From contig JANWJU010000157.1 in assembly GCA_025451775.1 (NCBI GenBank), positions 635-64,634 on the forward strand: 64,000 bases of DNA, written 5' to 3'. The stretch's first letter is position 1. Every line of letters starts with the position of its first letter. The position numbers were made by a program, and so were the translations under genes. Origin of the DNA: Terriglobales bacterium. Lineage in GTDB: Bacteria; Acidobacteriota; Terriglobia; Terriglobales; SCQP01. Positions 15,023 through 64,000 of the stretch are shown piece by piece. A model generated the notes under the pieces. The model searched no databases, was not told where the DNA came from, and saw nothing but the letters and a program-made list of their open reading frames with translations.

Positions 15023-15170
15023 TCGAGGCAGCTTGGAAGTGCCACGAGCAGAGCGGGGCAACGAGCGGCAGTGCCGCTCGTGCGCCGCCCATCGAAGCCC
15101 GCCCTCAAGCGAGCGATGCTCAAAATGCGAGCCTCGCGGGAGCGACCCAGCGAAAAGTGGCGAGCCACCG
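15023..15170 (+). repeat. dispersed intergenic repeat, full-length copy A (5' hairpin module + 3' module)
   Basis: Sequence: GAGGCAGCTTGGAAGTGCCACGAGCAGAGCGGGGCAACGAGCGGCAGTGCCGCTCGTGCGCCGCCCATCGAAGCCCGCCCTCAAGCGA...GGGAGCGACCCAGCGAAAAGTGGCGAGCCACC. The same modules recur at 15440, 26261, 40568, 54048, 62753 and 63039. Confidence 0.9.
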
Positions 15171-15189
15171 CCGCCTCCGGCAATGGAAA

Positions 15190-15219
15190 GGGTAGCCCGG
15201 GAGCGCTCCCGGGCTACCC
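15190..15219. terminator. perfect 30-nt palindrome, candidate bidirectional terminator hairpin
   Basis: GGGTAGCCCGGGAGC|GCTCCCGGGCTACCC read directly. It lies between the convergent methyltransferase (+) and histidine kinase (-) genes. No U-tract follows it. Confidence 0.45.
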
Positions 15220-15439
15220 TGGTAGGATTGGGTGAAGGGTTCCCTCTTCGGCGCCATCGGTCGATTCTAAGAGGGACACCGGTGTAGATGTCGCCTGCTT
15301 CGGAGCGTATGTCCGCAACGTGAGCACCACCAACCGGCACCGTCCCGATTTGACATCGCCCGCCCCGCGTCCTACGCTCTCGCCCATGTTGAAACCCACC
15401 GCTGGTTGATGGCCTGCTGCGCCACCTCGTTAACATCAA

Positions 15440-15604
15440 TTGGAGGCAGCTTGGAGATGCCACGAGCAGAGCGGGGCAACGAGCGGCAGTGCCGCTCGTG
15501 CCCCGCCCATCGAAGCCCGCCCCCAAGCGACCAGGGCCGGGGCCCTCAGCGCGCAGCGCCGGGGTGGCAGCGGGAGCAACCAAGCGAACAGTGGCGAGCC
15601 ACCC
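15440..15604 (+). repeat. dispersed intergenic repeat, full-length copy B
   Basis: The 5' module differs from copy A at about 4 of 88 positions by eye. The 3' module is GCGGGAGCAACCAAGCGAACAGTGGCGAGCCACCC. The copy ends 2 nt before the histidine kinase stop codon. Confidence 0.9.
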
Positions 15605-19418: not shown

Positions 19419-20122
19419 GCGAGCGGAGACTCCTGTTGCTGGCATCGCTGGGGCTGGTGATGGCCACGGCGCTGGCGCAAACGCCGGCCCCCGCCACGCT
19501 GCCCGGCCAAGCCACCGTCCGCCAACTGAACGCACGGAAGGTCAGCAACGCCGGTGTGGTGGTTTGGCTCACGCCCGTAGCCGGTTCGGCGCCAACGGTC
19601 ACGCCGGCTCGAACCTATCAGATGGCCCAGCGCAACAAGGCCTTCGAGCCGCACCTGCTGGTGATTCCCACCGGCTCCATGGTGGCGTTCCCCAATTTCG
19701 ATCCGTTTTTTCATAATGTTTTCTCGTTGGGCAACGACCGGCCGTTTGACCTGTTGTTGTATCAAGGCGGCGCCAGCCGCTCGCAACGGTTCTCGCGACC
19801 CGGCATTACCTATGTTTTTTGCAATATCCATCCGCAGATGAGTGCGGTCATCGTCACCGTGCCCACGCCCTGGTATGGCATCAGCGATGCTGCCGGCGCC
19901 TACGCCCTGCCCGCGCCGCCCCCCGGTGAATACCAACTCCACGTCTGGTACGAGCGCGCCCAACCGGCGGACTTGGCGCGGCTGCAGCGCCAGGTCGAGA
20001 TCGCCCCCAACACCGGGCTTCCATCCATCCAGGTTGACGAAAGCCCGGTTCCGGCCATGCACAAGAACAAATACGGCCAGGATTACGACACCCCCGGCAG
20101 CTACGGCACGGTCGATCAATAG
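19415..20122 (+). CDS. secreted cupredoxin-like protein (amicyanin-type Cu-site motif) with C-terminal beta-sandwich
   Basis: 235 aa, with a TTG start overlapping the OMP stop. The signal peptide is MSERRLLLLASLGLVMATALAQ. FPNFDPFFHNVFS plus CNIHPQM gives His...Cys-x2-His-x2-Met spacing as in amicyanin CTPHPFM. The tail YGISDAAGAYALPAPPPGEYQLHVWYE resembles a carboxypeptidase-regulatory-like fold. Confidence 0.65.
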   Translation: MSERRLLLLASLGLVMATALAQTPAPATLPGQATVRQLNARKVSNAGVVVWLTPVAGSAPTVTPARTYQMAQRNKAFEPHLLVIPTGSMVAFPNFDPFFHNVFSLGNDRPFDLLLYQGGASRSQRFSRPGITYVFCNIHPQMSAVIVTVPTPWYGISDAAGAYALPAPPPGEYQLHVWYERAQPADLARLQRQVEIAPNTGLPSIQVDESPVPAMHKNKYGQDYDTPGSYGTVDQ

Positions 20123-20147: not shown

Positions 20148-20175
20148 TTTACCTCGTGCTTAGTTGAGGTATGAT
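20148..20175 (+). promoter_or_regulatory. candidate promoter (TTTACC-16 nt-TATGAT) upstream of the TIM-barrel/permease module
   Basis: TATGAT at 20170-20175 and TTTACC at 20148-20153, within the AT-richer spacer after a T-run. This is a pattern match only. Confidence 0.25.
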
Positions 20176-20237
20176 CCACGCGTACGGAGGCCGAGGGCGG
20201 CTGGCGTAAACATGAGTCCCAAAGGAAGGATTGCCTA

Positions 20238-21278
20238 GTGTCCAATTTGTCCCGCCGTGAGTTTGCCAAAGTCGCCGCCGCCGGTTCAGTGTCGATCGCA
20301 GCCCTGGGTGCACTCGCCCGCACGGCCGCTGGCTTGGCGCCGGCCCCGCAGGCTTCCGCCTCCGTCCTCGCCCCCTGGGGCAAGCAGGTTGGGCTGGAAC
20401 TGTACACGGTTCGTGACTTGATCGAGAAAGACCAAGCGGGCACGCTGGCCAAGGTCGCCGCCATCGGCTACAAAGAGGTCGAGCCGGTGGGCTTTGGCGG
20501 CCTCGACCCCAAGGCCTACCGCGCCCTGCTGGACCAGAACGGCCTCACCGCCCCCAGCACCCATACCACCGTTTCGCCTGGCCCGGACCTGGAGAAGACC
20601 CTCGAGGGCTACCAGATCATCGGGATCAAATACATTACGGCCGGTGGGCCGCGTCCGGCCGCCCGCCGCCCTCCCGCCCCCGCCGCCCGGGGTGGCGCCG
20701 GTGGCGGCACGGCCCCCCGTGGCCGGGGTGGCCCCGGCGGCGGCCAGCGTCCGCCCGAGACCCCCGAGACCGTCAAGCGCACCGTCGACAACTACAACCA
20801 GGTCGGCAAGATGGCGCAGACGTATGGCATGCAGGTGCTGGTCCACAACCACGCCATGGAGTTTGAGAAGTTTGCCGGCAGCGAGCAGTGTCCTTACGAC
20901 ATCATCCTCGCCGAGAGCGATCCCAATCTGGTCGTCATGCAGATGGATATCGGCTGGGCCTCGGTCGCCGGCCAGGACCCCGTGGCCATGTTCCACAAAA
21001 ACCCCGGCCGCTTCGTCCTCTGGCACGTCAAGGACTTCATGAACCTGCAGTACCTGTTCCCACAGCCGGAGATGACCGAGTCGCAGCGCATGCAGGTGGC
21101 GGGCAACTGGATGGTGCCGTTCGGTTTGGGCGGCATCGATTACAAATCCATCTTCGAAAACGCCGCCGTGGCCGGCATGAAACACTTTTGCATCGAGCAG
21201 GACACCGCCGCCAATTGGGGCGATTCCGTCGCCGCCGCCGGCGTCAGCTACAAAAACCTGAAAAAAATGCTTTCCTAA
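20238..21278 (+). CDS. Tat-exported sugar phosphate isomerase/epimerase family protein (xylose-isomerase-like TIM barrel), paralog 1
   Basis: 346 aa, GTG start preceded by AAGGAAGG. The twin-arginine signal is MSNLSRREFAKVAAAGS. TIM-barrel motifs: ...VLVHNHAMEFE...MQMDIGWASVAGQDP...FVLWHVKD... Confidence 0.8.
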   Translation: MSNLSRREFAKVAAAGSVSIAALGALARTAAGLAPAPQASASVLAPWGKQVGLELYTVRDLIEKDQAGTLAKVAAIGYKEVEPVGFGGLDPKAYRALLDQNGLTAPSTHTTVSPGPDLEKTLEGYQIIGIKYITAGGPRPAARRPPAPAARGGAGGGTAPRGRGGPGGGQRPPETPETVKRTVDNYNQVGKMAQTYGMQVLVHNHAMEFEKFAGSEQCPYDIILAESDPNLVVMQMDIGWASVAGQDPVAMFHKNPGRFVLWHVKDFMNLQYLFPQPEMTESQRMQVAGNWMVPFGLGGIDYKSIFENAAVAGMKHFCIEQDTAANWGDSVAAAGVSYKNLKKMLS

Positions 21279-21290
21279 GGAGCGACATCC

Positions 21291-22640
21291 ATGGCTCTGC
21301 CGCGTTATCTCCGCGCCTCCGTTCCCAATCCCGCCGACAAGCGGGCGCCGTGGTATAAAAACACGGCGCCCGCCTACGCGGGCATCTTTTTAGCTGTCAT
21401 CTTCTACCAGCAGATGGCGGAGAACACGCTCAGCCAAGCCAGCGTGGGCACGTGCCTGTTGGGTCTGCTGGTGGGCGGCCTCATCGCCTGGGGCCTGTTC
21501 TACTACGCTCCGGCGATGCTGGGCATGAAAACCGGCCGTCCGCTCTACATCGTCGGCACCTCGACCTTCGGCACCCAGGGCAACTACCTGCCCGGCTTTT
21601 TAATGGGCCTGCTGCAGGTGGGTTTCATCGGCGTCATCACGCTGCTGGTGGCTAACTACATCATGGCCGCGGCGCACGCGCAGTCGCATGCGGTGGTGAT
21701 CCTCATCTGCATTATCTGGGCATATGCGCTGGCCTGGATCGCGATGCGCGGCATCTCGCATGTGGCGCGCGCCGGCAACATCCTCAACTGGATTCCGCTG
21801 ATCATGCTGGCGCTGGTGGTGTTTGCGGTGCGCGGGGGCATCGGGAAGTATCATCCCGCCGTGACCCACACCGGCACCGGTTTCGCAATCATGCTCGACG
21901 TCGTGCTCGGGTTCTTCGCCACCGCGGGCGCGGCGGGCGCCGATTTTGGCATCAATAGCCGGAATCAGCGCGACGTCAGCTTGGGCGGCCTGTTTGGCAT
22001 TGCGCTGGCGGCGCTGGTGGCTGGCGGATTGGCGATTCTGGCCGTGGCCGGTGCCATCGGACTCAACTCGGCGCTGCCGGTCGGGGCGGCCAGCCGCTTC
22101 GACTTCTCGGCCGCCATTGGCAGCGTCGGATCGGCGGCGTCGTTGGTTTACATCCTGTTTGTGATCGCGCTGTTGCCGTGTTGCACCTTCAGCACCTTCA
22201 TCGCCACCAACTCGTTTTCGACCATGATCCCCAACGCGCCCCGCTCGGTGTGGGCGTACGCGGCTGCCACCGGTGGCATTCTGCTCGCCATCACCGGTCT
22301 GGCCGCCAACTTGGGCGGATTCTTCGGATTGGTGGGCGCCACCTTTGCCCCGGTCTGCGGCGCCATGACCGCCGACTATCTATTGGCCGGCAAAAAGTGG
22401 AGCGGCCCGCGCCACGGCATCAACTGGGCCGGCTACCTGGCCTGGATCATTGGCTGCTGGGTGGGGCTGCTGATTAATCCCGGCCTGCATCTGGCGCCGG
22501 CGAGTTGGCAGCAGGCCGATCATCCCGCCGTCCTGTTCTCCTACCTCGTCGCCTTGGTCGTCTACTGGATTCTGGCAAAAGCCGGCGTCCGGCCCCGCCT
22601 CGTTGGCGAGGAGGAAATGAAAGCCGCTGCCAGGGCCTAG
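21291..22640 (+). CDS. NCS1/cytosine-purine-permease-like transporter, paralog 1
   Basis: 449 aa, about 12 predicted TM segments. The stretch ...YYAPAMLGMKTGRPLYIVGTSTFGTQGNYLPGFLMGLLQVGFIG... resembles the CodB/NCS1 family. The family call comes from memory of the motif, not from a search. Confidence 0.6.
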   Translation: MALPRYLRASVPNPADKRAPWYKNTAPAYAGIFLAVIFYQQMAENTLSQASVGTCLLGLLVGGLIAWGLFYYAPAMLGMKTGRPLYIVGTSTFGTQGNYLPGFLMGLLQVGFIGVITLLVANYIMAAAHAQSHAVVILICIIWAYALAWIAMRGISHVARAGNILNWIPLIMLALVVFAVRGGIGKYHPAVTHTGTGFAIMLDVVLGFFATAGAAGADFGINSRNQRDVSLGGLFGIALAALVAGGLAILAVAGAIGLNSALPVGAASRFDFSAAIGSVGSAASLVYILFVIALLPCCTFSTFIATNSFSTMIPNAPRSVWAYAAATGGILLAITGLAANLGGFFGLVGATFAPVCGAMTADYLLAGKKWSGPRHGINWAGYLAWIIGCWVGLLINPGLHLAPASWQQADHPAVLFSYLVALVVYWILAKAGVRPRLVGEEEMKAAARA

Positions 22641-22664
22641 CCCGCTGGGTATCGAAGAAGAACC

Positions 22665-23603
22665 ATGAACCTCTATTCGCGTCGTAATTTTGTCAAGCGG
22701 GCCGCCGGGCAACCGGCGGCCTTCCTTCAGGCCCCCGAACCCTCCGCCGCGTCCTCGAGTCCGTGGGCCGCGCGCATGGGATTGGAACTGTACACGGTTC
22801 GCGACGCCATTCAGCGGGACGAACCCGGCACGCTCGCCCAAGTGGCGGCCATGGGGTACAAGGAGGTCGAGCCCTCGGTGACGTACGGCGGCCTCGATCC
22901 CAAACAATACCGCGCTCTGCTCGACAAACTGGGCCTCATCGCCCCCACCACCCACATGTCGGTGACGCCGGGCCCAGATCTCGAGCAACAGCTCGAAGGC
23001 CACCAGATTATGGGCCACCGTTACACCTCGGTGGCGGAGCCGCGCAGCCCCGCGCCCCGAACTGCTGGCGCTGCCCGTGGCCCCAGCCCCGACGCCACCA
23101 AACGCACCTGCGAGATGTATAACCAGGTGGGCGCCGTGGGGAAAAAATACGGCATCCAGGTGCTGGTGCACAACCACACCACCGAGTTCGAACGGTACCC
23201 TGGCAGCGATCAGTGCCCCTATGACGTAATCCTCGCCACCTGCGACCCCGATTTGGTAGTCATGGAACTCGACATCGGCTGGGCCTCGGTCGCCGGCCAG
23301 GATATTCTGGCCCTGTTCCACCAGCATCCCGGCCGCTTTGTCCTCTGGCACGTCAAAGATTTCATGAACCTCCAGTATCTGTTCCCGCAGCCGGAGATGA
23401 CCGAATCCGAGCGGCAGCGCACCGCCGGGAAGTGGATGGTTCCGGTGGGTCTGGGCGGCATCGACTACAAGGCGATCTTCGCCCAACATGAGCTCGCCGG
23501 CATGAAGCACTTCAATATCGAGCAGGACAGTGCCGCCTCCTGGGGCAGCTCCATCGCCGCCGCCCACGTCAGCTATACCAACCTGTTGCGCGCCATCTCC
23601 TAA
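22665..23603 (+). CDS. Tat-exported sugar phosphate isomerase/epimerase family protein, paralog 2
   Basis: 312 aa with Tat signal MNLYSRRNFVKRAAG. It aligns along its whole length with 20238..21278 (for example FVLWHVKDFMNLQYLFPQPEMTES is identical in both). Confidence 0.8.
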   Translation: MNLYSRRNFVKRAAGQPAAFLQAPEPSAASSSPWAARMGLELYTVRDAIQRDEPGTLAQVAAMGYKEVEPSVTYGGLDPKQYRALLDKLGLIAPTTHMSVTPGPDLEQQLEGHQIMGHRYTSVAEPRSPAPRTAGAARGPSPDATKRTCEMYNQVGAVGKKYGIQVLVHNHTTEFERYPGSDQCPYDVILATCDPDLVVMELDIGWASVAGQDILALFHQHPGRFVLWHVKDFMNLQYLFPQPEMTESERQRTAGKWMVPVGLGGIDYKAIFAQHELAGMKHFNIEQDSAASWGSSIAAAHVSYTNLLRAIS

Positions 23604-23620
23604 ACTGGCCCTCCGCTCCT

Positions 23621-24859
23621 ATGGACATCCAGCGCCTGCGCATCGGGTTTGTCGGCAGCGGCTTCATCACCCGTTTTCATATTCAATCGCTGCTGGGCGT
23701 GCGGGACGCTGAAGCCGCCGGGGTCTGGAGCCCCAATGCGGTGAACGCGCGCGCCGCCGCCGCCTTGGCGCGGCAGCTTGACGTCGGTGCGGCGCGCGCC
23801 TTCCCGTCGCTTGAGGCCATGGTTGCCGATGATGCCATCGACGCCATTTGGCTCTGCGGGCCCAACCATCGCCGGCTGGACAACATGGCGGCGATCACCG
23901 CCGGCGCGGCGCGGCGGTCGCGTCCGCTGCGCGGCATCGCCTGTGAGAAGCCGCTGGCCCGCAACGTCGCCGAGGCGCGCCAGATGGCCGCCCTGGCGCG
24001 CAAGCTGGGCGTGCCCACCGGCTACCTGGAAGACCAACTCTTTGCCCCTGCCACCGAAGCCGGACGTGCCTTGGCCTGGGGACGGGGCGCGGCCGCCACC
24101 GGCCGCCCCTACCTCGCTCGCGCCGCCGAGGAGCATAGCGGCCCGCACCGCCCCTGGTTCTGGATGGGCGCCTTGCAGGGTGGCGGCGTCATGAACGACA
24201 TGATGTGCCACTCGGCCCTGCTCGTCCGCCACCTGCTTACCCGCCCCGGCGAGCCCCTCAGCACGGTGCGTCCCAAACGCCTTGCCGCCCACGTCGCCAG
24301 CCTGAAATGGTCCCAGCCCCTGTACGCGCGCCGCCTCGCCCGCACCATGGGCCGGGAAGTCGACTACCGGAAAAATCCCAGCGAGGACTTTGCCAGCCTG
24401 CACGTCGAGTTCGAAACGGCCGACAAGACCACCGTGATCGGCGAGTGCTCCGTCTCCTGGAGCTACGTCGGCGCCGGCCTGCGCTTATCCGCGGAGTTGC
24501 TCGGCCCCGAGTATTCGATGAGCTGGAACTCGCTCGATACCGGGCTGAAGCTGTTCTTCAGCCGTGAGGTGCAGGGCAAGGCAGGCGAGGACCTGGTCGA
24601 GAAGCAGAACGCCGAAACCGGCCTGATGCCCGTCGTCGTGGGCGAGGCCGCCGTGTATGGCTACGAGGCCGAGAACCGGCATTTTGCCCGTGCATTCCTG
24701 CATGGCACGCCGCCGGCGCTGAGCTTCGCCGACGGTGTCGGCGTGGTTGAGCTGCTCATGGCTGCCTATAAGAGCGCCGAATCCGGGCGCACGTTGAATT
24801 TTCCGCCACCGGGTCTGGCCACCTATGTTCCCGCCTGCGCCCGTACCGCTCCCCGTTAA
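23621..24859 (+). CDS. Gfo/Idh/MocA family oxidoreductase
   Basis: 412 aa. The N-terminal Rossmann motif is LRIGFVGSGFITRFHIQSL. The C-terminal alpha/beta domain is typical of the family. Confidence 0.85.
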   Translation: MDIQRLRIGFVGSGFITRFHIQSLLGVRDAEAAGVWSPNAVNARAAAALARQLDVGAARAFPSLEAMVADDAIDAIWLCGPNHRRLDNMAAITAGAARRSRPLRGIACEKPLARNVAEARQMAALARKLGVPTGYLEDQLFAPATEAGRALAWGRGAAATGRPYLARAAEEHSGPHRPWFWMGALQGGGVMNDMMCHSALLVRHLLTRPGEPLSTVRPKRLAAHVASLKWSQPLYARRLARTMGREVDYRKNPSEDFASLHVEFETADKTTVIGECSVSWSYVGAGLRLSAELLGPEYSMSWNSLDTGLKLFFSREVQGKAGEDLVEKQNAETGLMPVVVGEAAVYGYEAENRHFARAFLHGTPPALSFADGVGVVELLMAAYKSAESGRTLNFPPPGLATYVPACARTAPR

Positions 24860-24890
24860 GCAGGCCTCGCACCCCCAAAGGAAAACCCCT

Positions 24891-26243
24891 ATGCCGCTTC
24901 CCAAGTATTTACTGGCAGCCACCGCTAACCCGGAATCCAATCGCCGCGCATGGTACAAGAACACCGCTCCCGCCTACGCCGGGATTTTTCTCTCGGTGGT
25001 CTTTTACTTGCAGTTGTCCTCCATTCCGCTGGGCAGTGATGGCATCGGGATGGGCCTGATCGCCTTGGCGGTCGGCGGGCTGCTGTGCTGCATGTTCTAC
25101 TACGCCCCAGCCATGCTGGGCATGAAGACGGGCCAGCATCTCTACGTGGTCGGCACGTCGACGTTTGGGGTGCAGGGCAATTACTTTCCCGGCCTGCTCA
25201 TGGGCTTGCTGCAGGTGGGCTTTATCGGCGCCAACACCTACTTCGCGGTGGATTTCATCATGCGCGGCTTGCACGCCGGTTCGCCCGAACTGCGGGTGGC
25301 GCTGGTGATCGTTTGGGCCTACGTGTTCGCCTGGGTCGCCATGCGCGGCATTTCGCACGTGGCCCGCGCCGCCCAGATCTTGAACTGGATCCCGCTGGCG
25401 ATGTTGGTCATCGTGTTTTTCGCCACGCGCCACGGTCTGAGCCACTTCCAGCCTGCGGTGCATCACCCGGCGGAGAGTTTCGCGCTGACCCTCGATTTCG
25501 TCCTCGGCTACATTGCCACCGCCGCCGCCGCCGGCGCCGACTTCGGCAGCAACAGCCGCAATCGCGGTGACGTGATCCGGGGCGGTCTGGTGGGCATTGC
25601 ACTCGCCGTTTTTGTCGCTGGCGGCTTGGCCATGCTCGGTGTGGCCGGCGCTATGGGGTTGCACGTGGCCATTCCGGCCGGCGTCTCCAGCCCATTTGAT
25701 TTCACCACCGCCATCTCCAGCGTGGGTCCGCTATCGGGCATCATCTTCTTCCTGTTCGCGGCCGCGCTGCTGGTGCCGACCGCGTTCTGCACCTTCATCG
25801 CCACCAACTCGTTGACCACCATGCTGCCGGTGGCCAAGCGCGAGTTCTGGGCCTTCGCCGCCGCCAGCGGCGGCATCCTGCTGGCCGCCACCGGCGTGGC
25901 CGAGAACCTGCACGCCTTCTTCGGGCTGGTGGGCGCCTCGTTTGCCCCGGTCTGCGGCGCCATGGCCGCCGATTACTGGCTCGCTGGCAAGCGTTGGAGC
26001 GGTCCCCGCCACGGCATCAACTGGGCCGGGTTCGCGGCCTGGATCGTGGGCTTCTGGATCGGTGACATGGGCCGTCTGGGCATGGGCCCGGCCTCCTGGC
26101 AACAGGTCGACCATCCCTCCATCCTGTACGCCTTTATCGCCGCCTTCGCGGTTTACTGGGTGCTGGCGCGCGCCGGCGTCCGGCCGGCGGTGGTCGCGGC
26201 TTCCGAATTGGAGGCGATGACAGCCGGGAAGCGCCACGAATAG
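24891..26243 (+). CDS. NCS1/cytosine-purine-permease-like transporter, paralog 2
   Basis: ATG at 24891 (MPLPKYLLAATANPESNRRAWYKNTAPAYAGIFL...) lies inside ORF 24825..26243. It is collinear with 21291..22640. Confidence 0.6.
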   Translation: MPLPKYLLAATANPESNRRAWYKNTAPAYAGIFLSVVFYLQLSSIPLGSDGIGMGLIALAVGGLLCCMFYYAPAMLGMKTGQHLYVVGTSTFGVQGNYFPGLLMGLLQVGFIGANTYFAVDFIMRGLHAGSPELRVALVIVWAYVFAWVAMRGISHVARAAQILNWIPLAMLVIVFFATRHGLSHFQPAVHHPAESFALTLDFVLGYIATAAAAGADFGSNSRNRGDVIRGGLVGIALAVFVAGGLAMLGVAGAMGLHVAIPAGVSSPFDFTTAISSVGPLSGIIFFLFAAALLVPTAFCTFIATNSLTTMLPVAKREFWAFAAASGGILLAATGVAENLHAFFGLVGASFAPVCGAMAADYWLAGKRWSGPRHGINWAGFAAWIVGFWIGDMGRLGMGPASWQQVDHPSILYAFIAAFAVYWVLARAGVRPAVVAASELEAMTAGKRHE

Positions 26244-26260
26244 ATTGGGTGCCAGCTGCC

Positions 26261-26323
26261 GATTGGCGGAGCCGGTTGACAAGCGACCAACGGGAGCGAC
26301 CCAGCGAAAAGTGGCGAGCCACC
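26261..26323 (+). repeat. dispersed intergenic repeat, short copy E (3' module, degenerate 5' stub)
   Basis: ...AAGCGACCAACGGGAGCGACCCAGCGAAAAGTGGCGAGCCACC, ending at the stop codon of the convergent NIPSNAP gene. Confidence 0.8.
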
Positions 26324-40567: not shown

Positions 40568-40676
40568 TTGGAGGCAGCTTGGAGATGCCACGAGCAGAGC
40601 GGGCATCCCCTGCCGCCAATCGCAGCCCGCCCTCACGCGACCAGCGGGAGCGACCAAGCGAAGAGTGGCGAGCCAC
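40568..40676 (+). repeat. dispersed intergenic repeat, copy C (5' module with internal deletion + 3' module)
   Basis: TTGGAGGCAGCTTGGAGATGCCACGAGCAGAGCGGGCATCCCCTGCCGCC...AGCGGGAGCGACCAAGCGAAGAGTGGCGAGCCAC, in the divergent ABC/DoxX spacer. Confidence 0.85.
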
Positions 40677-51735: not shown

Positions 51736-52032
51736 ATGGAAGCATTGGGAATGATCGAAACCAAGGGCTTGGTCGGCTCGATTGAAGCCGCCGACGCCAT
51801 GGTGAAGGCCGCCAACGTCGTACTGCTGGGCAAGGAGTACATCGGCGCCGGCTTTGTGACCGTCATGGTCCGGGGCGATGTGGGCGCGGTCAAGGCGGCG
51901 ACCGACGCGGGCGCGGCTGCGGCCCGCCGGGTGGGCGAGCTGGTGAGCGTCCACGTCATTCCCCGGCCCCACAGTGAGGTCGAAAAGATCCTGCCCAACA
52001 AGGGCATCGTCGCCGCTGCCGACAAAAAATAG
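51736..52032 (+). CDS. bacterial microcompartment shell protein, BMC-H (PduA/EutM/CcmK-type single BMC domain)
   Basis: 98 aa, [79 protein letters not shown]. This is a textbook BMC-domain sequence. Confidence 0.95.
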
Positions 52033-52059
52033 CCGCCCCCTCCCAGCGGCCGTGGACCA

Positions 52060-53820
52060 GTGGACAACGATGCTCAATCGGTCGCCGAAGCCCGCGAGTT
52101 GATCGAGCGGGCCTACGCCGCTTGGCTGCAGTACCGGAGCTTCTCCCAAGCGCAGGTGGACGCCATCGTGGACGCCATGGCCGCCGCCGCCACCGCCAAC
52201 GCCGAACGCCTGGCGATCATGGCGGTGGACGAGACCACCTACGGCAAGGTGGCCGACAAAGTCCGCAAGAACCGCTTCGCCTCCGAGCGCGTCTACGGCG
52301 CCATCCGCTCCATGCGCACCGTGGGCGTGCTGCGCGAGCATGCCGCCCAGGGCATCATCGAGATGGGCGAGCCGGTCGGTGTCGTGGCCGCCGTCCTGCC
52401 CTGCACCAACCCCACCTCCACGGCCATCTATAAAATCCTGATCGCGCTCAAGGCCGGCAACGCCATCGTGCTCAGCCCCCATCCGGCGGCCATGCGCTGC
52501 ATCTGTGAGACCGTGGGCCTGATGCGTCAGGCGGCGCTCGCGCACGGCGCTCCCGACGGCCTCATTGGCTGCTTCTCCACCCCCACCCGCGCCGGCACCG
52601 CCGAGTTGATGAGCCACAAGCGCACCAGCGTCATCCTCGCCACCGGCGGCATGGGAATCGTGCGCGCCGCTTATAGCTCGGGCAAACCTGCCTTCGGCGT
52701 TGGTCCCGGCAATGTGCCCGCCTTCATCGACCGTTCCGCCCATCTGGAGAAGGCGGTCGCCGATGTGGTCTTTGGCAAGAGCTTCGATTGGGGGACCATC
52801 TGCAGCTCCGAGCAGGCGCTGGTCGCCGAGCGCGAGCTGCGAACGCCCATCCTCGATCAGCTGCGCGCCCAGCAGGCGTATCTGATGAACGCCCAGGAGA
52901 CCGAGCGCTTGTCGCGCCTGCTGATCCAGGGCGAGCACTTCACCGTCAACCCCAAGTGCGTGGGCCAGTCGCCGCAGACGCTGGCGGCGCTCGCCGGGTT
53001 TGGCGATCGCGTCCCCGCGGCCGCGCGCATCCTGGCCGCCGAGCTGGACGGCATGGGCAGACAGTTCCCGCTCTCGGCGGAAAAACTCTCCCCCGTGCTG
53101 GCGCTGTTTTTCATGCCCGATCGGGATGCCGCCCTGCGCCGCTGCTCCGACCTGCTGCACTTCGGCGGCCTGGGCCACACCTGCGTGATCCATGCCCAGG
53201 ACGACGCCGTGATCCGCGAGTATGGACGCCTCATGCCGGCGTTCCGCGTGGTCGTCAACAGCCCCGCGCCTCTCGGCTCCATCGGCGCCACCACCAACTT
53301 GTTTCCCGCCATGACCCTGGGTTGCGGCGCCCGCGGCGGCAACATCACCAGCGACAACATCGGCCCCCAACACTTGATGAACATCAAGCGCATCGCTTGG
53401 GAGCTCGCCGGGGAGCGGCCCGAAGTCACCGCTGCCGAGGCTGTGCCCTTCGCCTCCCCTGCCTCCGCGACCGCGACCCCCGCCTGCGCCTGCCAGCATG
53501 CGGCTCAGAAGGCAGCGCCGCCCGCTTTGGCCGCGCTTGGCAGCGAAACCACCGAGACGATCGAGCAGATGGTCGAGCGCGTGCTCGCCGCGCGCGGCAT
53601 CCGCCCCCGCCTCAGCACCGCCCCCGCGCCTTCTCCTGCTCCAGAATTCCTGCCCCCGCCGCTGCCGCCCAAGCCCGCGCCCGCCGCCTTCCTCTGTGAG
53701 GCGGACGTGCGCGACGCACTGGCGCAAGGACGCAAGATCACCATTGGTCCGCGCACCATCCTGACTCCATCGGCTCGGGATCTGGGCCGCGAGCGGGACG
53801 TTTTCGAGACCACCGCCTAG
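52060..53820 (+). CDS. CoA-acylating aldehyde dehydrogenase (EutE/PduP/AdhE-N type) with 136-aa C-terminal extension
   Basis: 586 aa, GTG start 27 nt after the BMC-H stop. Motifs: ...[18 protein letters not shown]...[29 protein letters not shown]...[11 protein letters not shown] (catalytic Cys)...[12 protein letters not shown]... The extension holds an amphipathic [16 protein letters not shown] segment. Confidence 0.92.
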
Positions 53821-54047: not shown

Positions 54048-54130
54048 TTGGAGGCAGCTTGAAAGCGCCGCTCGTCGCCCGCCCATAAGCGACCATCGGG
54101 AGCGACCCAGCGAAAATTGGCGAGCCACCC
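54048..54130 (+). repeat. dispersed intergenic repeat, copy D (internally deleted)
   Basis: TTGGAGGCAGCTTGAAAGCGCCGCTCGTCGCCCGCCCATAAGCGACCATCGGGAGCGACCCAGCGAAAATTGGCGAGCCACCC. Confidence 0.85.
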
Positions 54131-60540: not shown

Positions 60541-61716
60541 CTAATTGCCGGGACCAAGGTAGGCGACCAAACCCAGCAGCAGCGTGGGTTGGTTGCGGGA
60601 CATCCCGGTGTTGGTCGAGAAGAACGGCTGATTCGACCAGTCGTCGCGGAACTCGACCCGGCTGAGCAACCATTTGTTGGCCTTGTACTCACCCGTGATC
60701 GTGGCTTCCTTGACCGCTTGCGCCGTGCCGGTGGAAAAGCCCGAGGCATCGTCGAACCATTCCAGGCGGCCGGCGACGGCGTAGCGCTTCCCGATGGCGT
60801 GGCGCGCCGCCAGGGCCAGCCCCGTCCAGTACTGGACCGCCGTGGTCCCGTAGGCTTGGTTGCGGCCGTAGTCGTAGTTGACGTAGTAGCTGAACGCGCT
60901 GCTGGGATTCACCAGGACTTCGGTGTCGTAGAGGTTGCGCCAGCCCTGCGTGGTCCCGGAGTTCTCCGGGCCGCCGTAGTAGTTGCTGGTCCAGGTGGCC
61001 TTTTTCCAGGCGTAGGCGAACGTCAGGCCCAGCGTTTTGCCGCGGTTGATCGGGTAGACGTTGTTCCAGCCGTTGACCACGGCCACGCCGGCGGTGATGT
61101 GCGAGCCGATGGGCGCCAGCATCCGCACTCCGGTGTGGTCGTAGGGGATGGCCCAGGCGAACAACAGCGAGTGCGTGACGTCCCAGTTGCTGTTGGACTC
61201 GATCACCTCTGAGCCGGCCCAGGTAACGAACTCCCCGGCGTCGACCTCGATCCCGCCCAAGGCCTTGGGTTTAAAGCTGACGTAACCCTGCTCGAAGTGG
61301 TCGAACCAGTGCGGATCGCGGTTGCCGTAGTGAATCTCGCGAAACGTCTGGCCGGCTCCGATATCGAAATGAAAGCCGACTGGGGCCGCCGGATGGTCGA
61401 TCGTCACCTTGGCGAAACTCAACTGGGCGGTGTTGGCGAGGTAATCGAAGTTCTGCAGCCCATTGAGACCGGTGGCCGGCGAGTTGGGGTTGTAGTCGGC
61501 GTACCCCTCCGCCATGGCGCTGAAAGTTGTGCCCCCAAACGTGTAGGGCGTGGGCGCAGATGCCACGGTGGCCGTGGCGGCCGGCGGTGCCGGCGGCGGC
61601 GGCGGGGGAGCCTGCTGTCCCCGAGCGGGCGCCAATAGGACAAAGGCCGCTAAGCTGGACAGCGCCCAGCATTTCTGCAATGTCTCACGGAATCGAAACC
61701 AAACAGCTCCGGTCAT
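60541..61716 (-). CDS. outer-membrane beta-barrel porin (bbp2/OmpL-like)
   Basis: 391 aa with a signal peptide, then a Pro-rich linker. Motifs: ...FSAMAEGYADYNPNSP...NFDYLANTAQLSFAKVTI...GFHFDIGAGQTF... This is the alternating beta-strand pattern of porin-2 family proteins. Confidence 0.7.
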   Translation of the reverse strand: MTGAVWFRFRETLQKCWALSSLAAFVLLAPARGQQAPPPPPPAPPAATATVASAPTPYTFGGTTFSAMAEGYADYNPNSPATGLNGLQNFDYLANTAQLSFAKVTIDHPAAPVGFHFDIGAGQTFREIHYGNRDPHWFDHFEQGYVSFKPKALGGIEVDAGEFVTWAGSEVIESNSNWDVTHSLLFAWAIPYDHTGVRMLAPIGSHITAGVAVVNGWNNVYPINRGKTLGLTFAYAWKKATWTSNYYGGPENSGTTQGWRNLYDTEVLVNPSSAFSYYVNYDYGRNQAYGTTAVQYWTGLALAARHAIGKRYAVAGRLEWFDDASGFSTGTAQAVKEATITGEYKANKWLLSRVEFRDDWSNQPFFSTNTGMSRNQPTLLLGLVAYLGPGN

Positions 61717-61919
61717 CGCTCCTCCTCAAACGTCGTTCGGTCGAACTTAAGGGGAGGGCGTCGTGGCCCAGAGTTGCTCACCGCGCCGCTAGCGTCATGG
61801 CCGCCGGTGCGGAGTGCCGAGGGATGTCGCCGATTGCCCCCGTGGGCGGCGGCGAATTCCCCTGAAAAAGACTCTAGTCCAGCCGCGGGCGCAAGGGAAA
61901 TTCAAAGTTTTAATGAGGC

Positions 61920-62752: not shown

Positions 62753-62847
62753 CGAAGCCGAAGCCCGCCGCAAGCGGCCAGCGCCGGAGCCCCGGCGCGC
62801 AACGCTGGGTGACCGTGGAGCGACCCAGCGAAAGCTGGCGAGCGAGC
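62753..62847 (+). repeat. dispersed intergenic repeat, copy F (middle + 3' module only)
   Basis: CGAAGCCGAAGCCCGCCGCAAGCG...GGAGCGACCCAGCGAAAGCTGGCGAGCGAGC, upstream of tRNA-Glu. Confidence 0.7.
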
Positions 62848-62899
62848 ATGGTAAACTGACTGCATCTGTCGGCCAGCAGCGCGGTCGATTTTCCACTCT

Positions 62900-62977
62900 G
62901 TCCCCGTCGTCTAGCCCGGCCTAGGACACCGCCCTTTCACGGCGATAACACGGGTTCGAATCCCGTCGGGGACGCCA
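62900..62977 (+). tRNA. tRNA-Glu (anticodon TTC), CCA encoded
   Basis: GTCCCCGTCGTCTAGCCCGGCCTAGGACACCGCCCTTTCACGGCGATAACACGGGTTCGAATCCCGTCGGGGACGCCA. It is near-identical in layout to E. coli tRNA-Glu(UUC): acceptor GTCCCCG/CGGGGAC and anticodon loop CTTTCAC. Confidence 0.92.
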
Positions 62978-63038
62978 AGCCGAATCAAAAACCGAGGCCG
63001 CGGCGCCGCGGGCGGCCAAAAGCGCATGCTTGCCCCTG

Positions 63039-63110
63039 CTGGAGGCAGCGTGGAGATGCCTCCAGCCGAGCCGGGCAACGAGCGGCAGTGCCGCGTGTGC
63101 GCCGCCTGCT
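63039..63110 (+). repeat. dispersed intergenic repeat, copy G (5' hairpin module only)
   Basis: CTGGAGGCAGCGTGGAGATGCCTCCAGCCGAGCCGGGCAACGAGCGGCAGTGCCGCGTGTGCGCCGCC, downstream of tRNA-Glu. Confidence 0.75.
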
Positions 63111-63124
63111 GGCCGAAGCGGATC

Positions 63125-64000
63125 CTACAACGTGTTGAGGAAGGCGACCAGGTCGGCCGTCTCCTGCTGGCTCAGGTTGAGGTTGAAGCGTCGATTGTAG
63201 AAGGCCAGCACGTCGTTGAGGCTGGCGGCCGAACCGTTGTGGAAGTAGGGCGCGCGCGCGGCAAGGGCACGCAGGATGGGACCCTTGAATTTGCCGATGT
63301 CGGAGCAGCGGCCGGAGATCAGCGCGCGGCCGAGATCGGTGGTTTGCACGGTCGAGCCGTCCTTGCACTGCACCGTGAAGAGCGGCAGGTCGGGGGTGCG
63401 TTCGGAGGCGGCGGCGGTGCCGATGTTCAGCGGTCCAGGCACGCTGTGGTCGCCCACGTTGGGCGTGTTGTGGCAGGTGGAGCAAGTGCCCAGGATCACC
63501 GGAAGGCCAAGCGCGTCATTCAACCCGGCCACGCCCGAAATGGTGATCGGGCGGGTGTTGAAGATGGCCTCACCCCGTGCCACCGATTGCCGATCGGGCT
63601 GGTTGCTGTGGTTCCAGGCGCGGTACAGATCGAACACGTCGGGCGTGCCGGGCTGGCCCTGCGCATCGAGGTTGTTGATGCCGATGAAGAAGGGCTGCTG
63701 CATCAGCGGCTCAGGCCCGCCGCGCGCCCCTTCGGCTTCCAGGCGCCCAGCGGCGTGGTCCAACACTTGGGCGGTGTAGAGGCTGCGCTCGAAGGCAACG
63801 ATGCTGTCCAGCACGGCATTCGAGGGCGCCGTCGCTGCCTGCTCGTGTCCCATAATAGCGTCGAACGCCTGCGACCGGAGCGAGTCGTTGAGGGTGTTGC
63901 CGGCGGGCGACTCGCGGCCATCCCACATCACGGTGGTGAGGAAGCGCAAGTTCGTGGCGGGCAAGGGGCGGCGGTAGACGGAAACGTTCTGGGTGTCGGC
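63125..64000 (-). CDS. di-haem cytochrome c peroxidase family protein (N-terminus outside window)
   Basis: The frame is open to the window edge; the ORF-track start at 63964 is only a TTG. Motifs: ...WDGRE...GTCSTCHNTPNVG (second haem site)...FKGPILRALAARAPYFHNGSAASLNDVLAFYN... This is the typical CCP/MauG C-terminal half. Confidence 0.85.
   Translation of the reverse strand, partial: ADTQNVSVYRRPLPATNLRFLTTVMWDGRESPAGNTLNDSLRSQAFDAIMGHEQAATAPSNAVLDSIVAFERSLYTAQVLDHAAGRLEAEGARGGPEPLMQQPFFIGINNLDAQGQPGTPDVFDLYRAWNHSNQPDRQSVARGEAIFNTRPITISGVAGLNDALGLPVILGTCSTCHNTPNVGDHSVPGPLNIGTAAASERTPDLPLFTVQCKDGSTVQTTDLGRALISGRCSDIGKFKGPILRALAARAPYFHNGSAASLNDVLAFYNRRFNLNLSQQETADLVAFLNTL

What the first reader, a model, noticed from the sequence alone, without database searches (positions are those of the whole stretch)
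15023..15604. Modular 60-165 bp intergenic repeat family: seven copies in 64 kb, all in the same orientation
Seen: two full-length copies (15023-15170 and 15440-15604) share a 5' module. It reads GAGGCAGCTTGGAGATGCCACGAGCAGAGCGGGGCAACGAGCGGCAGTGCCGCTCGTGC(C/G)CCGCCCATCGAAGCCCGCCC, with about 4 mismatches in 88 nt by eye. They also share a 3' module, GGGAGCGACCCAGCGAAAAGTGGCGAGCCACC.

Truncated or internally deleted copies lie at 26261-26323, 40568-40676, 54048-54130, 62753-62847 and 63039-63110. All are strictly intergenic and all are in + orientation, whatever the flanking gene direction.

Structure:
- The 5' module contains a 10-bp hairpin, ACGAGCGGCA-G-TGCCGCTCGT (15061-15081).
- An upstream duplicate, CACGAGC, could pair with the same GCTCGTG arm, giving mutually exclusive structures.
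- The 3' module contains the palindrome GTGGCGAGCCAC (15157-15168).

Inference: this is a REP/MITE-like element or a structured RNA family. The uniform orientation on the strand that also carries the ribosomal operon hints at a replication- or transcription-linked polarity.
Basis: partly seen in the sequence, partly recalled or inferred. Interest (0 to 1): 0.6.

Follow-up and report, generated by a model that had tools for sequence, protein, structure and literature searches.

The report
Strand-polarised mobile hairpin repeat family
The repeats are copies of a small, very abundant mobile DNA element of an uncultured (probably acidobacterial) soil-type bacterium that pastes itself in precisely, without the usual duplicated flanks, always four bases after a C and almost always on the same DNA strand, which points to a single-stranded-DNA transposition mechanism whose enzyme is still unidentified.

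Summary
A profile built from 119 foreign copies finds exactly seven copies in the window, all on the + strand.

The family is a prolific interspersed element.

- **Boundaries.** Three filled/empty site pairs, one empty site being in this window, show the inserted unit is exactly 5'-T(G/C)GAGGCAGC…GTGGCGAGCCAC-3'. It is 108 nt, or 126/144/146/162 nt with optional hairpin modules. There is no target-site duplication and no terminal inverted repeats.
- **Target.** It is 5'-C-N-N-N^, with C at -4 in 118 of 120 sites. The element's own 3' end, CCAC^, obeys the same rule.
- **Polarity.** Neighbouring copies are co-oriented in 51 of 57 pairs, independently of gene direction.
- **Genes.** About 5% of copies sit in frame inside intact genes.

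My best reading is a non-autonomous element moved as single-stranded DNA, in the peel-and-paste style of IS200/IS605 or REP–RAYT. Its closest published relative is the hairpin repeats around class 3 HuH-Y1 genes of Acidobacteria. No transposase was found.

C at -4 is also the hallmark of topoisomerase I cleavage, a more novel possibility. A structured-RNA role is not supported.

The parts
15023..15168 (+). Copy 1, 146 nt. It has the 5' hairpin module (variant with GTG instead of ATG), the long inner hairpin ACGAGCGGCA-G-TGCCGCTCGT, the central module, an optional hairpin insert (GCGATGCTC…GAGCCTCGC) and the 3' module ending GTGGCGAGCCAC. The flank is CCGC^T.
   Evidence: nhmmer E = 6e-26. DNA fold -38.5 kcal/mol, z = -2.7.
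15441..15602 (+). Copy 2, 162 nt. It has the 5' module, the long inner hairpin, the central module, a 36-nt optional hairpin insert and the 3' module. The flank is CAAT^T. It ends 4 nt before the stop of the convergent histidine-kinase gene.
   Evidence: nhmmer E = 4e-23. DNA fold z = -2.6.
26219..26322 (+). Copy 3. This is a decayed full-length copy, not a truncated one. Its 5' part overlaps the last codons and the stop codon (26241-26243) of the upstream transporter ORF.
   Evidence: nhmmer aligns profile positions 5-108, E = 5e-18. Sequence.
40569..40676 (+). Copy 4, the canonical 108-nt short form. It lies between the divergent ABC-ATPase (-) and DoxX (+) genes. The flank is CGGT^T.
   Evidence: nhmmer E = 1e-29. 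Sequence, gene context, member of alignment A1.
54049..54128 (+). Copy 5, 80 nt, internally deleted between the 5' module and the right arm of the long hairpin. It was inserted directly after a terminator-like hairpin plus T-run. The flank is CTTT^T.
62757..62843 (+). Copy 6, 5'-truncated. It starts in the central module, carries the 36-nt-type hairpin insert and has a mutated 3' tip. It lies upstream of tRNA-Glu.
   Evidence: nhmmer E = 1e-4.
63040..63132 (+). Copy 7, 3'-truncated or decayed (5' module plus long hairpin). It lies just downstream of tRNA-Glu. The flank is CTGC^T.
   Evidence: nhmmer E = 8e-4.
19432..19439 (+). Unoccupied target site (CCTG^TTGC, junction 19435|19436). A strain 96% identical (L048) carries a 126-nt copy exactly here.
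60571..61650 (+). A 1080-nt segment holding most of a porin-like gene on the - strand. In related contigs L056 and L104 it is replaced by one 108-nt copy. Both deletion ends lie after a C-N-N-N (CCAA^ and CCGC^).

Best explanation
The repeats are copies of a non-autonomous mobile element. I infer that it transposes as single-stranded DNA by precise excision and insertion ('peel and paste'), catalysed in trans by a tyrosine nuclease that leaves a 5'-phosphotyrosine link. The most likely enzyme is an HuH-Y1 protein of the IS200/IS605 / REP-associated (RAYT) superfamily.

**Shown**
- The unit is 5'-T(G/C)GAGGCAGC…GTGGCGAGCCAC-3'. The basic length is 108 nt.
- Optional hairpin modules give 126, 144, 146 and 162 nt.
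- It inserts with no target duplication and has no inverted termini.
- It always inserts 3' of C-N-N-N. There are weaker preferences: T/G at -5, A at -2, T at +1 and +2.
- Its own 3' end, CCAC^, follows the same rule.
- Both termini fall exactly at the feet of hairpins: nt 1-50 and nt 97-108.
- Neighbouring copies are co-oriented regardless of gene direction.
- It has moved since strains 96-98% identical diverged.

**Inferred**
- The top strand is cut after the flanking CNNN and after CCAC, and is circularised.
- The circle is pasted after another CNNN on DNA that is transiently single-stranded, namely the lagging-strand template. That would give the strand polarity. In this window the copies share the sense strand of the ribosomal-protein operon.
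- The length is a multiple of three and all three sense frames are open. This lets sense insertions inside genes survive as 36-codon in-frame additions.
For: **Real and prolific**
- Seven + copies in the window.
- 179 3' modules in 634 kb of fetched DNA.

**Precise ends, no duplication**
- Three filled/empty pairs: L012/L113 in both directions, and L048 against window 19435|19436.
- No diagonal of identity between the two flanks.

**Target rule**
- C at -4 in 118/120 sites, p = 1e-53. A at -2, p = 2e-7. T/G at -5.
- The element's end is CCAC in at least 114 of 121 copies.
- All five window copies with an intact 5' end have C at -4.

**Hairpins at both ends**
-.
- The 5' hairpin has two pairs with double compensatory change, AU to GC, in 25 sequences.

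**Polarity**
- 51/57 unique adjacent pairs are co-oriented, p = 6e-10. For pairs more than 1 kb apart it is 29/33.
- Only 52% of coding bases lie on the element's strand.
- A 65:35 preference set by local genes could give at most about 55% co-orientation.

**Published mechanism and relatives**
- IS200/IS605 elements have no inverted repeats. They cut at a flanking target tetranucleotide and at the final tetranucleotide of the right end. These cut sites are read by guide tetranucleotides at the 5' feet of subterminal hairpins. They use a single-stranded circle and the lagging-strand template (PMC6006769; PMC5027513).
- Class 3 HuH-Y1 genes of Acidobacteria are flanked by atypical hairpins with a 5' foot CnGA. 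About 600 copies are present in Solibacter usitatus (PMC6006769).
- In this element the long inner hairpin has the foot CAGA, the 5' hairpin has T(G/C)GA, and GCGA precedes the 3' module.
- Two of the three genome hits are from a MAG titled Acidobacteriales bacterium.
Against: - No transposase was found. There is no IS200-type or class-3-type HuH/Y motif ORF and no multicopy ORF family in about 0.75 Mb of element-rich contigs. The source MAG could not be scanned.
- Known IS200/IS605 targets are fully specified, T-rich tetra- or pentanucleotides (my own knowledge). Here only one base is fixed.
- The right-end cleavage site lies inside the 3' arm of the terminal hairpin. In IS608 it lies in a single-stranded tail.
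- The replication direction is inferred only from the ribosomal-protein operon. GC skew was uninformative.
- The similarity to the class 3 'CnGA' hairpins rests on one sentence of a paper.
Confidence: 0.55

Rival explanations
1. The element is cut and rejoined by a type IA topoisomerase, either the host topoisomerase I or a dedicated relative. No HuH transposase would be involved. The enzyme cleaves single-stranded DNA four bases 3' of a cytosine and forms a 5'-phosphotyrosine link, the same chemistry as a peel-and-paste transposase. So it could excise the strand between CNNN^ (flank) and CCAC^ (element end) and paste it after any exposed CNNN.
For: - The only near-invariant target base is C at -4, in 118/120 sites. 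The element's 3' end also has C at -4.
- Selectivity for a cytosine 4 nt 5' of the scissile phosphate is a conserved property of bacterial and archaeal topoisomerase I and of reverse gyrase (PMC3467081).
- The in-vivo E. coli motif is TCNTT^A/T in an A+T-rich patch (PMC9352719). That resembles the T/G at -5 and the A/T enrichment around the site seen here.
- The enzyme cleaves single-stranded DNA next to hairpins.
- Both ends of the element-associated 1080-nt deletion also follow CNNN^.
- No transposase was found.
Against: - I know of no mobile element moved by a type IA topoisomerase, and a literature search found none.
- One conserved base is thin evidence. An HuH enzyme with a guide that reads one base would give the same logo.
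- It does not explain why the elaborate conserved hairpins and the '(T/G)(C/G)GA' feet are kept.
- A host enzyme with such loose specificity would be expected to scramble the genome.
Confidence: 0.12
2. It is a rolling-circle element of the IS91/ISCR/Helitron type (HuH-Y2), non-autonomous. One strand is displaced from a nick at one end and terminated at a 3' hairpin.
For: - No target duplication and no inverted repeats.
- A hairpin lies at the 3' terminus.
- The insertion is oriented, and subfamily II starts with 5'-TC.
- Copies with an intact 3' end and variable 5' truncation exist.
Against: - IS91-type targets are CTTG/GTTC and Helitrons insert between A and T (my own knowledge). Here only C at -4 is fixed and CTTG is not among the common targets.
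- The excess of 5'-truncated copies is an ascertainment artefact, because contigs were fished with the 3' module. In the window, truncations are balanced.
- No co-mobilised flanking DNA was seen.
Confidence: 0.08
3. It is a structured non-coding RNA family (sRNA, UTR element, terminator or stabiliser) kept by selection for an RNA function. Copies would be spread by ordinary duplication or by RNA-mediated retro-insertion.
For: - The 5' hairpin is stable and has two compensatory pairs.
- There is a mild excess of copies co-oriented with tandem genes, 46 against 25.
- Many copies sit just after stop codons or terminators.
Against: - No Rfam family matches.
- Folding z-scores are modest.
- RNAalifold's own consensus has no compensatory pair.
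- Copies occur antisense to genes and inside coding sequence.
- Coding strand and element strand agree for only 52% of coding bases.
- Near-identical copies at 136 unrelated sites, with presence/absence polymorphism, indicate selfish spread.
- Nothing significant came from the promoter/terminator scan.
Confidence: 0.07
4. It is a classical MITE derived from a DDE-transposase insertion sequence.
For: Small size, high copy number, mostly intergenic location.
Against: - No terminal inverted repeats. The ends are T(G/C)GAGGCAGC and GTGGCGAGCCAC.
- No target-site duplication in three filled/empty pairs, and none statistically across 121 copies.
- The strong strand polarity is not expected for cut-and-paste of double-stranded DNA.
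Confidence: 0.02

Closest known systems
Atypical hairpin repeats flanking class 3 HuH-Y1 (TnpA-Y1) genes of Acidobacteria and Planctomycetes (Quentin, Siguier, Chandler & Fichant 2018, PMC6006769)
   Same: - Same phylum, as far as the MAG titles say.
- Hundreds of copies per genome (about 600 in Solibacter usitatus; 7 per 64 kb here).
- Non-canonical hairpins without the GTAG tag.
- A 5' foot of the type CnGA. Here it is CAGA before the long inner hairpin, T(G/C)GA before the 5' hairpin and GCGA before the 3' module.
   Different: - The published description gives no sequences that I could compare.
- It gives no insertion boundaries, no target rule, no polarity and no modular architecture.
- No class 3 gene was found next to any copy here.
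IS200/IS605-family elements and their non-autonomous derivatives
   Same: - No inverted termini and no target duplication.
- Hairpins at both ends.
- Insertion 3' of a short target whose counterpart is the element's last tetranucleotide.
- Precise presence/absence.
- Strand bias of the kind linked to the lagging-strand template (PMC5027513, PMC6006769).
   Different: - The target is almost unspecified (C-N-N-N), not a fixed T-rich tetra- or pentanucleotide.
- The cleavage sites abut or lie within the hairpin feet.
- No tnpA, tnpB or autonomous copy was found.
- The architecture is modular with optional hairpins.
REP/BIME elements with RAYT (TnpA-REP)
   Same: High-copy extragenic palindromes, presumed to be moved in trans by a single-copy HuH-Y1 gene. 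Occasional in-frame insertions in genes are reported (PMC6006769).
   Different: - No GT[AG]G or CGTC tag.
- The unit is 108-162 nt with several different hairpins, not a 20-40 nt hairpin.
- Copies are single and co-oriented, not inverted pairs.
Rickettsia palindromic elements (RPE)
   Same: A 100-150 nt palindromic selfish repeat. It is found in frame inside unrelated housekeeping genes, adding a peptide without destroying the ORF (PMC10969869). Here the hosts are XerD-like, Mrr, GlpK, a glucosamine-6-P-isomerase-type gene and a glycerate-kinase-type gene.
   Different: - Only about 5% of copies are intragenic here, against nearly half for some RPE families.
- Different phylum and no sequence similarity.
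- The RPE insertion mechanism is unknown, so it cannot be compared.
BOX elements of Streptococcus pneumoniae
   Same: Modular build: constant end modules with a variable number or kind of internal modules.
   Different: Different sequence and host. BOX has no reported C(-4) target rule or strand polarity (my own knowledge).

Membership tests
Classical MITE (DDE-transposase derived) | Terminal inverted repeats | tested here: not met
   The ends T(G/C)GAGGCAGC and GTGGCGAGCCAC are not complementary.
Classical MITE (DDE-transposase derived) | Target-site duplication | tested here: not met
   Three filled/empty pairs show none. There is no flank-to-flank identity diagonal in 121 copies.
IS200/IS605-type single-strand ('peel and paste') element | No inverted repeats, no duplication, precise insertion and excision | tested here: met
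IS200/IS605-type single-strand ('peel and paste') element | Hairpins at both ends | tested here: met
   A 5' hairpin at nt 1-50 and a 3' hairpin at nt 97-108 appear in DNA and RNA folds. Two compensatory pairs. They are terminal, not subterminal.
IS200/IS605-type single-strand ('peel and paste') element | Insertion 3' of a conserved tetra- or pentanucleotide that resembles the element's last tetranucleotide | tested here: inconclusive
   Only C at -4 is fixed (118/120). There is weak C at -3 and significant A at -2. The commonest target is CCAG, against the element end CCAC.
IS200/IS605-type single-strand ('peel and paste') element | Orientation bias linked to the replication direction | tested here: inconclusive
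   Strong local co-orientation (51/57) that is independent of gene strand. Origin and terminus are not available, and GC skew was uninformative.
IS200/IS605-type single-strand ('peel and paste') element | Cognate HuH-Y1 transposase (in cis or in trans) | tested here: not met
   No motif-bearing ORF in about 0.75 Mb of contigs and no multicopy ORF. The host MAG itself was not searchable, so absence from the genome is not shown.
Class 3 HuH-Y1 associated hairpin repeats (Acidobacteria) | High-copy atypical hairpins with 5' foot CnGA | tested here: inconclusive
   CAGA precedes the long inner hairpin. T(G/C)GA and GCGA precede other stems.
Class 3 HuH-Y1 associated hairpin repeats (Acidobacteria) | Repeats flank a class 3 tnpA-Y1 gene | not testable with these tools
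   This needs the whole host genome.
REP / RAYT | 20-40 nt hairpin with a 5' GT[AG]G (or CGTC) tag | tested here: not met
   The element carries no such tag. The one GTAG…CTAC palindrome nearby (15192-15217) is single-copy and not part of the family.
Rickettsia palindromic element-like (in-frame selfish DNA) | Copies inserted in frame inside intact protein-coding genes | tested here: met
   Five genes have Pfam domains on both sides of the insert. Unit lengths of 108/126/144/162 nt are multiples of 3. 93 of 122 copies are open in all three sense frames.
Structured non-coding RNA family | Match to a described family, or covariation-supported conserved structure | tested here: not met
   No Rfam match. 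RNAalifold finds 0 compensatory pairs. Only 2 of 22 proposed pairs covary, at subfamily level.
Integron attC sites | Array of co-oriented imperfect palindromes, each bounding a gene cassette, with core sites RYYYAAC/GTTRRRY | tested here: not met
   Filled/empty pairs differ by the element alone, not by a cassette. The copies lie among housekeeping genes. The ends carry no core-site sequences.

The most novel reading that the evidence does not exclude
The element is mobilised through cleavage and rejoining by a type IA topoisomerase, either host topoisomerase I or a captured relative. The only near-invariant requirement at the target and at the element's own 3' end is a cytosine four bases 5' of the break. 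That is the signature of this enzyme family, whose 5'-phosphotyrosine chemistry could in principle do peel-and-paste transposition. This would be a new class of transposition enzyme, or a parasite of an essential housekeeping enzyme.
Probability: 0.12. Interest if true: 0.9.

Novelty: new variant of a known kind. Interest (0 to 1): 0.6.

Why it matters
- **A mechanism question becomes testable.** Abundant small repeats of uncultured soil phyla are almost undescribed. This family now has exact ends, an exact target rule and clear evidence of recent movement. That turns 'what are the hairpin repeats of Acidobacteria and what moves them?' into an experiment: two defined oligonucleotide junctions and two candidate enzymes.
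- **A polarity marker for fragmented assemblies.** If the strand polarity follows replication, the element marks replichore orientation in metagenome-assembled genomes where GC skew fails.
- **A source of protein variation and annotation error.** Its ability to sit in frame inside genes (XerD-like, Mrr, GlpK and others) changes protein sequences. It also causes errors in MAG annotation, such as altered C-termini and starts, as at 26241 in this window.
- **A possible new route of DNA mobility.** The single-base C(-4) target rule matches no known transposase family. If it reflects topoisomerase I, the finding would be of much wider significance.

Tried and rejected
1. **Small ORF.** The element has GGAGG-N10-ATG and an open frame, and the indels between forms are 18 and 36 nt. 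I rejected this. The largest subfamily has GCG instead of ATG. The ATG-to-GCG change covaries with its hairpin partner. Copy 1 is frameshifted. All three sense frames are open, so openness is not frame-specific.
2. **Target-site duplication.** A few suggestive cases (L026 17-bp repeat, L038 TTTAGG) are not general.
3. **Autonomous parent.** L060 has a 5' and a 3' part 2.4 kb apart, but the interior is a tRNA plus an integrase fragment, not a transposase. Other orphan 5' modules are palindromic variants or truncations.
4. **Transposase searches.** Motif searches for IS200-type and class-3-type HuH-Y1 proteins and a search for multicopy ORFs all found nothing.
5. **GC skew as a replication proxy.** It was uninformative: 57 contigs positive against 60 negative.
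6. **5'-truncation excess as a sign of reverse transcription or rolling circle.** I rejected this as an ascertainment bias of fishing with the 3' module.
7. **More empty sites.** Exact-protein look-ups around copies 1, 2, 4 and 5 showed identical spacing in all samples. One look-up found nothing on record.
8. **Database searches.** Rfam, plasmid, phage and viral-contig searches gave no match.
9. **RNAalifold's long-range 5'-3' helix** (GCCAC with GTGGC) has no covariation. It competes with the terminal hairpin.
10. **Optional modules as nested insertions obeying the CNNN rule.** By inspection the junctions do not fit, so they look like hairpin extensions or duplications.
Full report

Yes. The 3' module, written as GGAGCRACCMAGCGAANNNTGGCGAGC, occurs six times in the window. 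All six are on the + strand, and none is expected in 100 shuffles. The 5' module occurs four times, all on the + strand, with 0.05 expected. The repeat finder reports the two long copies as 88 nt at 95% identity, and the 3' block as a family of five to six members.

A profile HMM built only from 119 copies found elsewhere recovers exactly seven copies in the window, all on the + strand. They lie at 15023-15168, 15441-15602, 26219-26322, 40569-40676, 54066-54128, 62757-62843 and 63040-63132.

There are three corrections:
- The unit starts two bases earlier than stated, at T(G/C)GAGG.
- The copy near 26.2 kb is a decayed full-length copy. Its 5' part provides the last codons and the stop codon of the upstream transporter ORF.
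- 'Strictly intergenic' therefore does not hold for that copy, nor for the family as a whole (see section 4).

**2. Where the window comes from and how widespread the family is**

The window is contig DATBOM010000052.1 of the MAG GCA_036553825.1. The same locus is assembled in several JGI metagenomes. The copies sit among ordinary housekeeping genes. These include the ribosomal-protein/secY/rpoA cluster on the + strand, a methyltransferase, a hybrid histidine kinase, sugar-metabolism genes, an RND efflux pump and tRNA-Glu.

Searches of public collections gave the following:
- One species-representative genome scan found only three copies. Two are in a MAG titled 'Acidobacteriales bacterium' and one fragment is in a 'Deltaproteobacteria' MAG.
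These hold 140 exact-pattern copies at 136 different flanks.
- With relaxed matching there are 179 3' modules and 136 5' modules in 634 kb.
- Rfam has no matching family at gathering or relaxed thresholds.
- Plasmid, phage and viral-contig collections have no match.

**3. Anatomy**

The commonest form (64 of 128 full copies) is 108 nt: TGGAGGCAGCTTGGAGATGCCACGAGCAGAGCGGGCATCCCCTGCCGCCAATCGAAGCCCGCCCTCAAGCGACCAGCGGGAGCGACCCAGCGAAAAGTGGCGAGCCAC. Other size classes are 126, 144, 146 and 162 nt (those lengths are measured from GAGG, so add 2).

The size classes arise from optional hairpin modules at fixed places:
- An 18-nt extension of the inner 5' hairpin (…GGGGCA ACGAGCGGCA G TGCCGCTCGT GCGCC…). 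This is the form seen in copies 1, 2 and 7 of the window.
- A 36-nt insert (CCGGGGTCCCCAGCGCGCAGCGCAGGGGTGGCAGCG), seen in copy 2.
- A 38-nt hairpin variant that replaces the 18-nt stretch at the same position (…GCGATGCTCACAGTGCGAGCATCGC…), a net gain of 20 nt. It is seen in copy 1.
- A rarer insert between the 5' hairpin and the central module.

As single-stranded DNA or RNA, nt 1-50 fold into one long imperfect hairpin that begins at the very first base. Nt 97-108 form a short terminal hairpin (GTGG-CGAG-CCAC) that ends at the very last base.

Three subfamilies differ at two adjacent pairs of the 5' hairpin in a compensatory way: GATGCC/GGCATC, AGCGCC/GGCGC and GAGGCC/GGCCTC. In the count, 25 sequences carry a double change at each of two pairs. 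No shuffle reached the observed covariation score, and slid controls drop from 88% to about 40% paired.

This is only two or three evolutionary events, so it is modest support. Folding z-scores are -1.3 to -2.7. RNAalifold's own consensus shows no compensatory pair. The copies are too similar for a real covariation test, which itself points to recent spread.

**4. It is mobile, and how it inserts**

I joined the two flanks of every copy and searched them against all fetched DNA. That gave three clean filled/empty pairs:
- L012 carries a copy where L113 (98% identical) has none.
- L113 carries a different copy where L012 has none.
- L048 carries a 126-nt copy where this window (96% identical) has the uninterrupted sequence, at 19435|19436.

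In each case the extra DNA is exactly T(G/C)GAGGCAGC…GTGGCGAGCCAC. No base is duplicated or lost, and there is no microhomology in the unambiguous case. Across 121 copies there is no identity diagonal between the upstream and downstream flanks. The two ends are not inverted repeats.

The flank logo is striking:
- The base four positions 5' of the insertion point is C in 118 of 120 independent sites (p = 1e-53). The three bases after it are nearly free.
- Weaker signals are T/G at -5 (p = 2e-5), A at -2 (p = 2e-7) and T at +1 and +2.
- The commonest target is CCAG, and the element's own last four bases are CCAC. So the break at the right end obeys the same 'C at -4' rule.
- All five window copies with an intact 5' end have C at -4: CCGC, CAAT, CGGT, CTTT and CTGC.

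A fourth polymorphism is more complex. In L056 and L104 a 108-nt copy replaces window 60571-61650, which is most of a porin-like gene. Both deletion ends again follow C-N-N-N.

**5. Polarity**

On contigs with several copies, neighbouring copies have the same orientation in 51 of 57 unique pairs (p = 6e-10). For pairs more than 1 kb apart it is 29 of 33. This is not a by-product of transcription:
- With a rough GC3-based gene caller, copies between tandem genes are co-oriented 46 times and anti-oriented 25 times.
- Over all contigs only 52% of coding bases lie on the element's strand.
- Contigs such as L109 (six co-oriented copies, 68% of coding DNA on the other strand) and L068 are clear counter-examples.

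A 65:35 local preference could give at most about 55% co-orientation, not 89%. Some chromosome-scale asymmetry is needed, and replication direction is the obvious candidate.

I could not prove it. GC skew follows gene strand here and does not correlate with copy orientation. In this window the copies share the sense strand of the ribosomal-protein operon. In bacteria that strand is almost always the lagging-strand template (established knowledge). That is the strand IS608 and ISDra2 use (PMC5027513; PMC6006769).

**6. Copies inside genes**

Twelve of 179 copies lie within a long open frame with coding-type composition on both sides. For five of them Pfam confirms real domains on both sides of the insert:
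- an XerD-like recombinase
- an Mrr endonuclease
- glycerol kinase, with its FGGY_N domain split in two
- a glucosamine-6-P-isomerase-type protein
- a DUF4147/MOFRL protein

The main size classes (108, 126, 144, 162 nt) are multiples of three. In 93 of 122 distinct copies all three sense frames are free of stops. About 10% of composition-matched shuffles achieve this. This is compatible with, but does not prove, selection for tolerated in-frame insertion. It parallels the Rickettsia palindromic elements (PMC10969869).

**7. Mechanism**

The following features together match single-strand 'peel and paste' transposition by HuH-Y1 enzymes:
- precise insertion without duplication
- absence of inverted ends
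- hairpins at both ends
- a cleavage rule shared by the flanking target and the element's last tetranucleotide
- precise presence/absence alleles
- strong strand polarity

In that mechanism, guide tetranucleotides at the 5' feet of the end hairpins read a flanking target tetranucleotide and the final tetranucleotide of the right end (PMC6006769).

The same paper describes a rare 'class 3' HuH-Y1 group found mainly in Planctomycetes and Acidobacteria. Its genes are flanked by atypical hairpins with a 5' foot CnGA, present in about 600 copies in Solibacter usitatus. In the present element the long inner hairpin is preceded by CAGA, the 5' hairpin by T(G/C)GA and the 3' module by GCGA. I regard this as the closest published relative.

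Membership is untested. No HuH-Y1 ORF and no multicopy ORF was found in about 0.75 Mb of element-rich contigs. The host MAG could not be scanned.

The element differs from IS200/IS605 in two ways. The target is almost unspecified, and the right-end cut lies in the arm of the terminal hairpin.

**8. The more novel alternative**

A cytosine four bases 5' of the break is the conserved selectivity of bacterial and archaeal topoisomerase I and of reverse gyrase (PMC3467081). It has been confirmed in vivo for E. coli, where the motif is TCNTT^A/T in an A+T-rich patch (PMC9352719).

These enzymes cut single-stranded DNA next to duplex regions and form a 5'-phosphotyrosine link. That is the chemistry a peel-and-paste reaction needs. 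The target logo here (T/G at -5, C at -4, A/T enrichment around the site) fits at least as well as any known transposase target.

No topoisomerase-driven mobile element is known to me or was found in the literature search. One conserved base is thin evidence. I give this reading about 12%.

**9. Other readings considered**

- A classical MITE is excluded.
- An IS91/Helitron-type rolling circle is possible, but the target does not fit, and the apparent excess of 5'-truncated copies is an ascertainment artefact.
- A functional RNA family is not supported.
- A small protein gene is rejected.
- Integron attC sites are rejected.

**10. Verdict**

The finding is a real and well-defined family, not decaying debris. 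It is a recently active, strand-polarised, duplication-free mobile hairpin element with a one-base target rule.

In kind it belongs with the REP / IS200-IS605-derived elements. In its details (the C(-4) target, hairpins that reach the termini, modularity, in-frame compatibility) it is a new variant. Its enzyme remains to be identified.

Noticed in passing
window 15192-15217: A perfect 26-nt palindrome, GTAGCCCGGGAGCGCTCCCGGGCTAC, lies between copies 1 and 2. It has a 'GTAG…CTAC' double foot like some REP sequences. It is single-copy in the window and in all fetched loci, so it is probably just the terminator of the convergent gene pair.
   Followed up: yes
window 15351-15404: By eye there is a TTGACA…(17)…TACGCT promoter-like pair followed by a tiny ORF (ATG TTG AAA CCC ACC GCT GGT TGA), just upstream of copy 2 on the + strand. 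The consensus scan did not call a promoter here.
   Followed up: partly
window 62757-63132: tRNA-Glu (62900-62977) is bracketed by a 5'-truncated copy upstream and a 3'-truncated copy downstream. It looks as if the tRNA sits between the tail of one element and the head of the next. This may be chance or a rearrangement.
   Followed up: no
window 20175-26243: A tandem paralogous gene set is duplicated at 73-79% DNA identity (for example 20762-21061 against 23087-23386, and 22153-22452 against 25750-26049). The genes are AP_endonuc_2-type and cytosine/purine-permease-type.
   Followed up: no
window 60571-61650 against L056:4733-4840 and L104: A porin-like gene (- strand, 394 aa ORF at 60541-61725) is present in the window. 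In two related contigs one element copy replaces all but its first roughly 22 codons.
   Followed up: partly
L017 (- strand, about 3404 on the reverse complement) and L040:1032-1130: A variant in which the 5' module is followed by its own near-perfect reverse complement (GAGGCAGCTTGGAAGCGCCAC…GAGCGGCA G TGCCGCTC GTGGCGCTTTCAAGCTGCC). This gives one long palindrome and no 3' module. It suggests the 'long inner hairpin' of copies 1, 2 and 7 is the remnant of such a fold-back.
   Followed up: partly
L114:1178-1400 (- strand): By eye, an IS256-like transposase reading frame (…SWTAFLRYLKERG…) is interrupted by the 3' module of the element. This is unrelated to the element's own mobility.
   Followed up: no
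L098:360-420: A head-to-tail junction with no spacer (…GTGGCGAGCCAC|TGTTGGCAGCTTGGAGATGCC…). It is the only such case. It is what insertion after the resident copy's own CCAC^, or a circle junction, would look like.
   Followed up: partly
window 51736-53820: A BMC-domain (microcompartment shell) gene lies next to an aldehyde dehydrogenase gene, upstream of copy 5.
   Followed up: no
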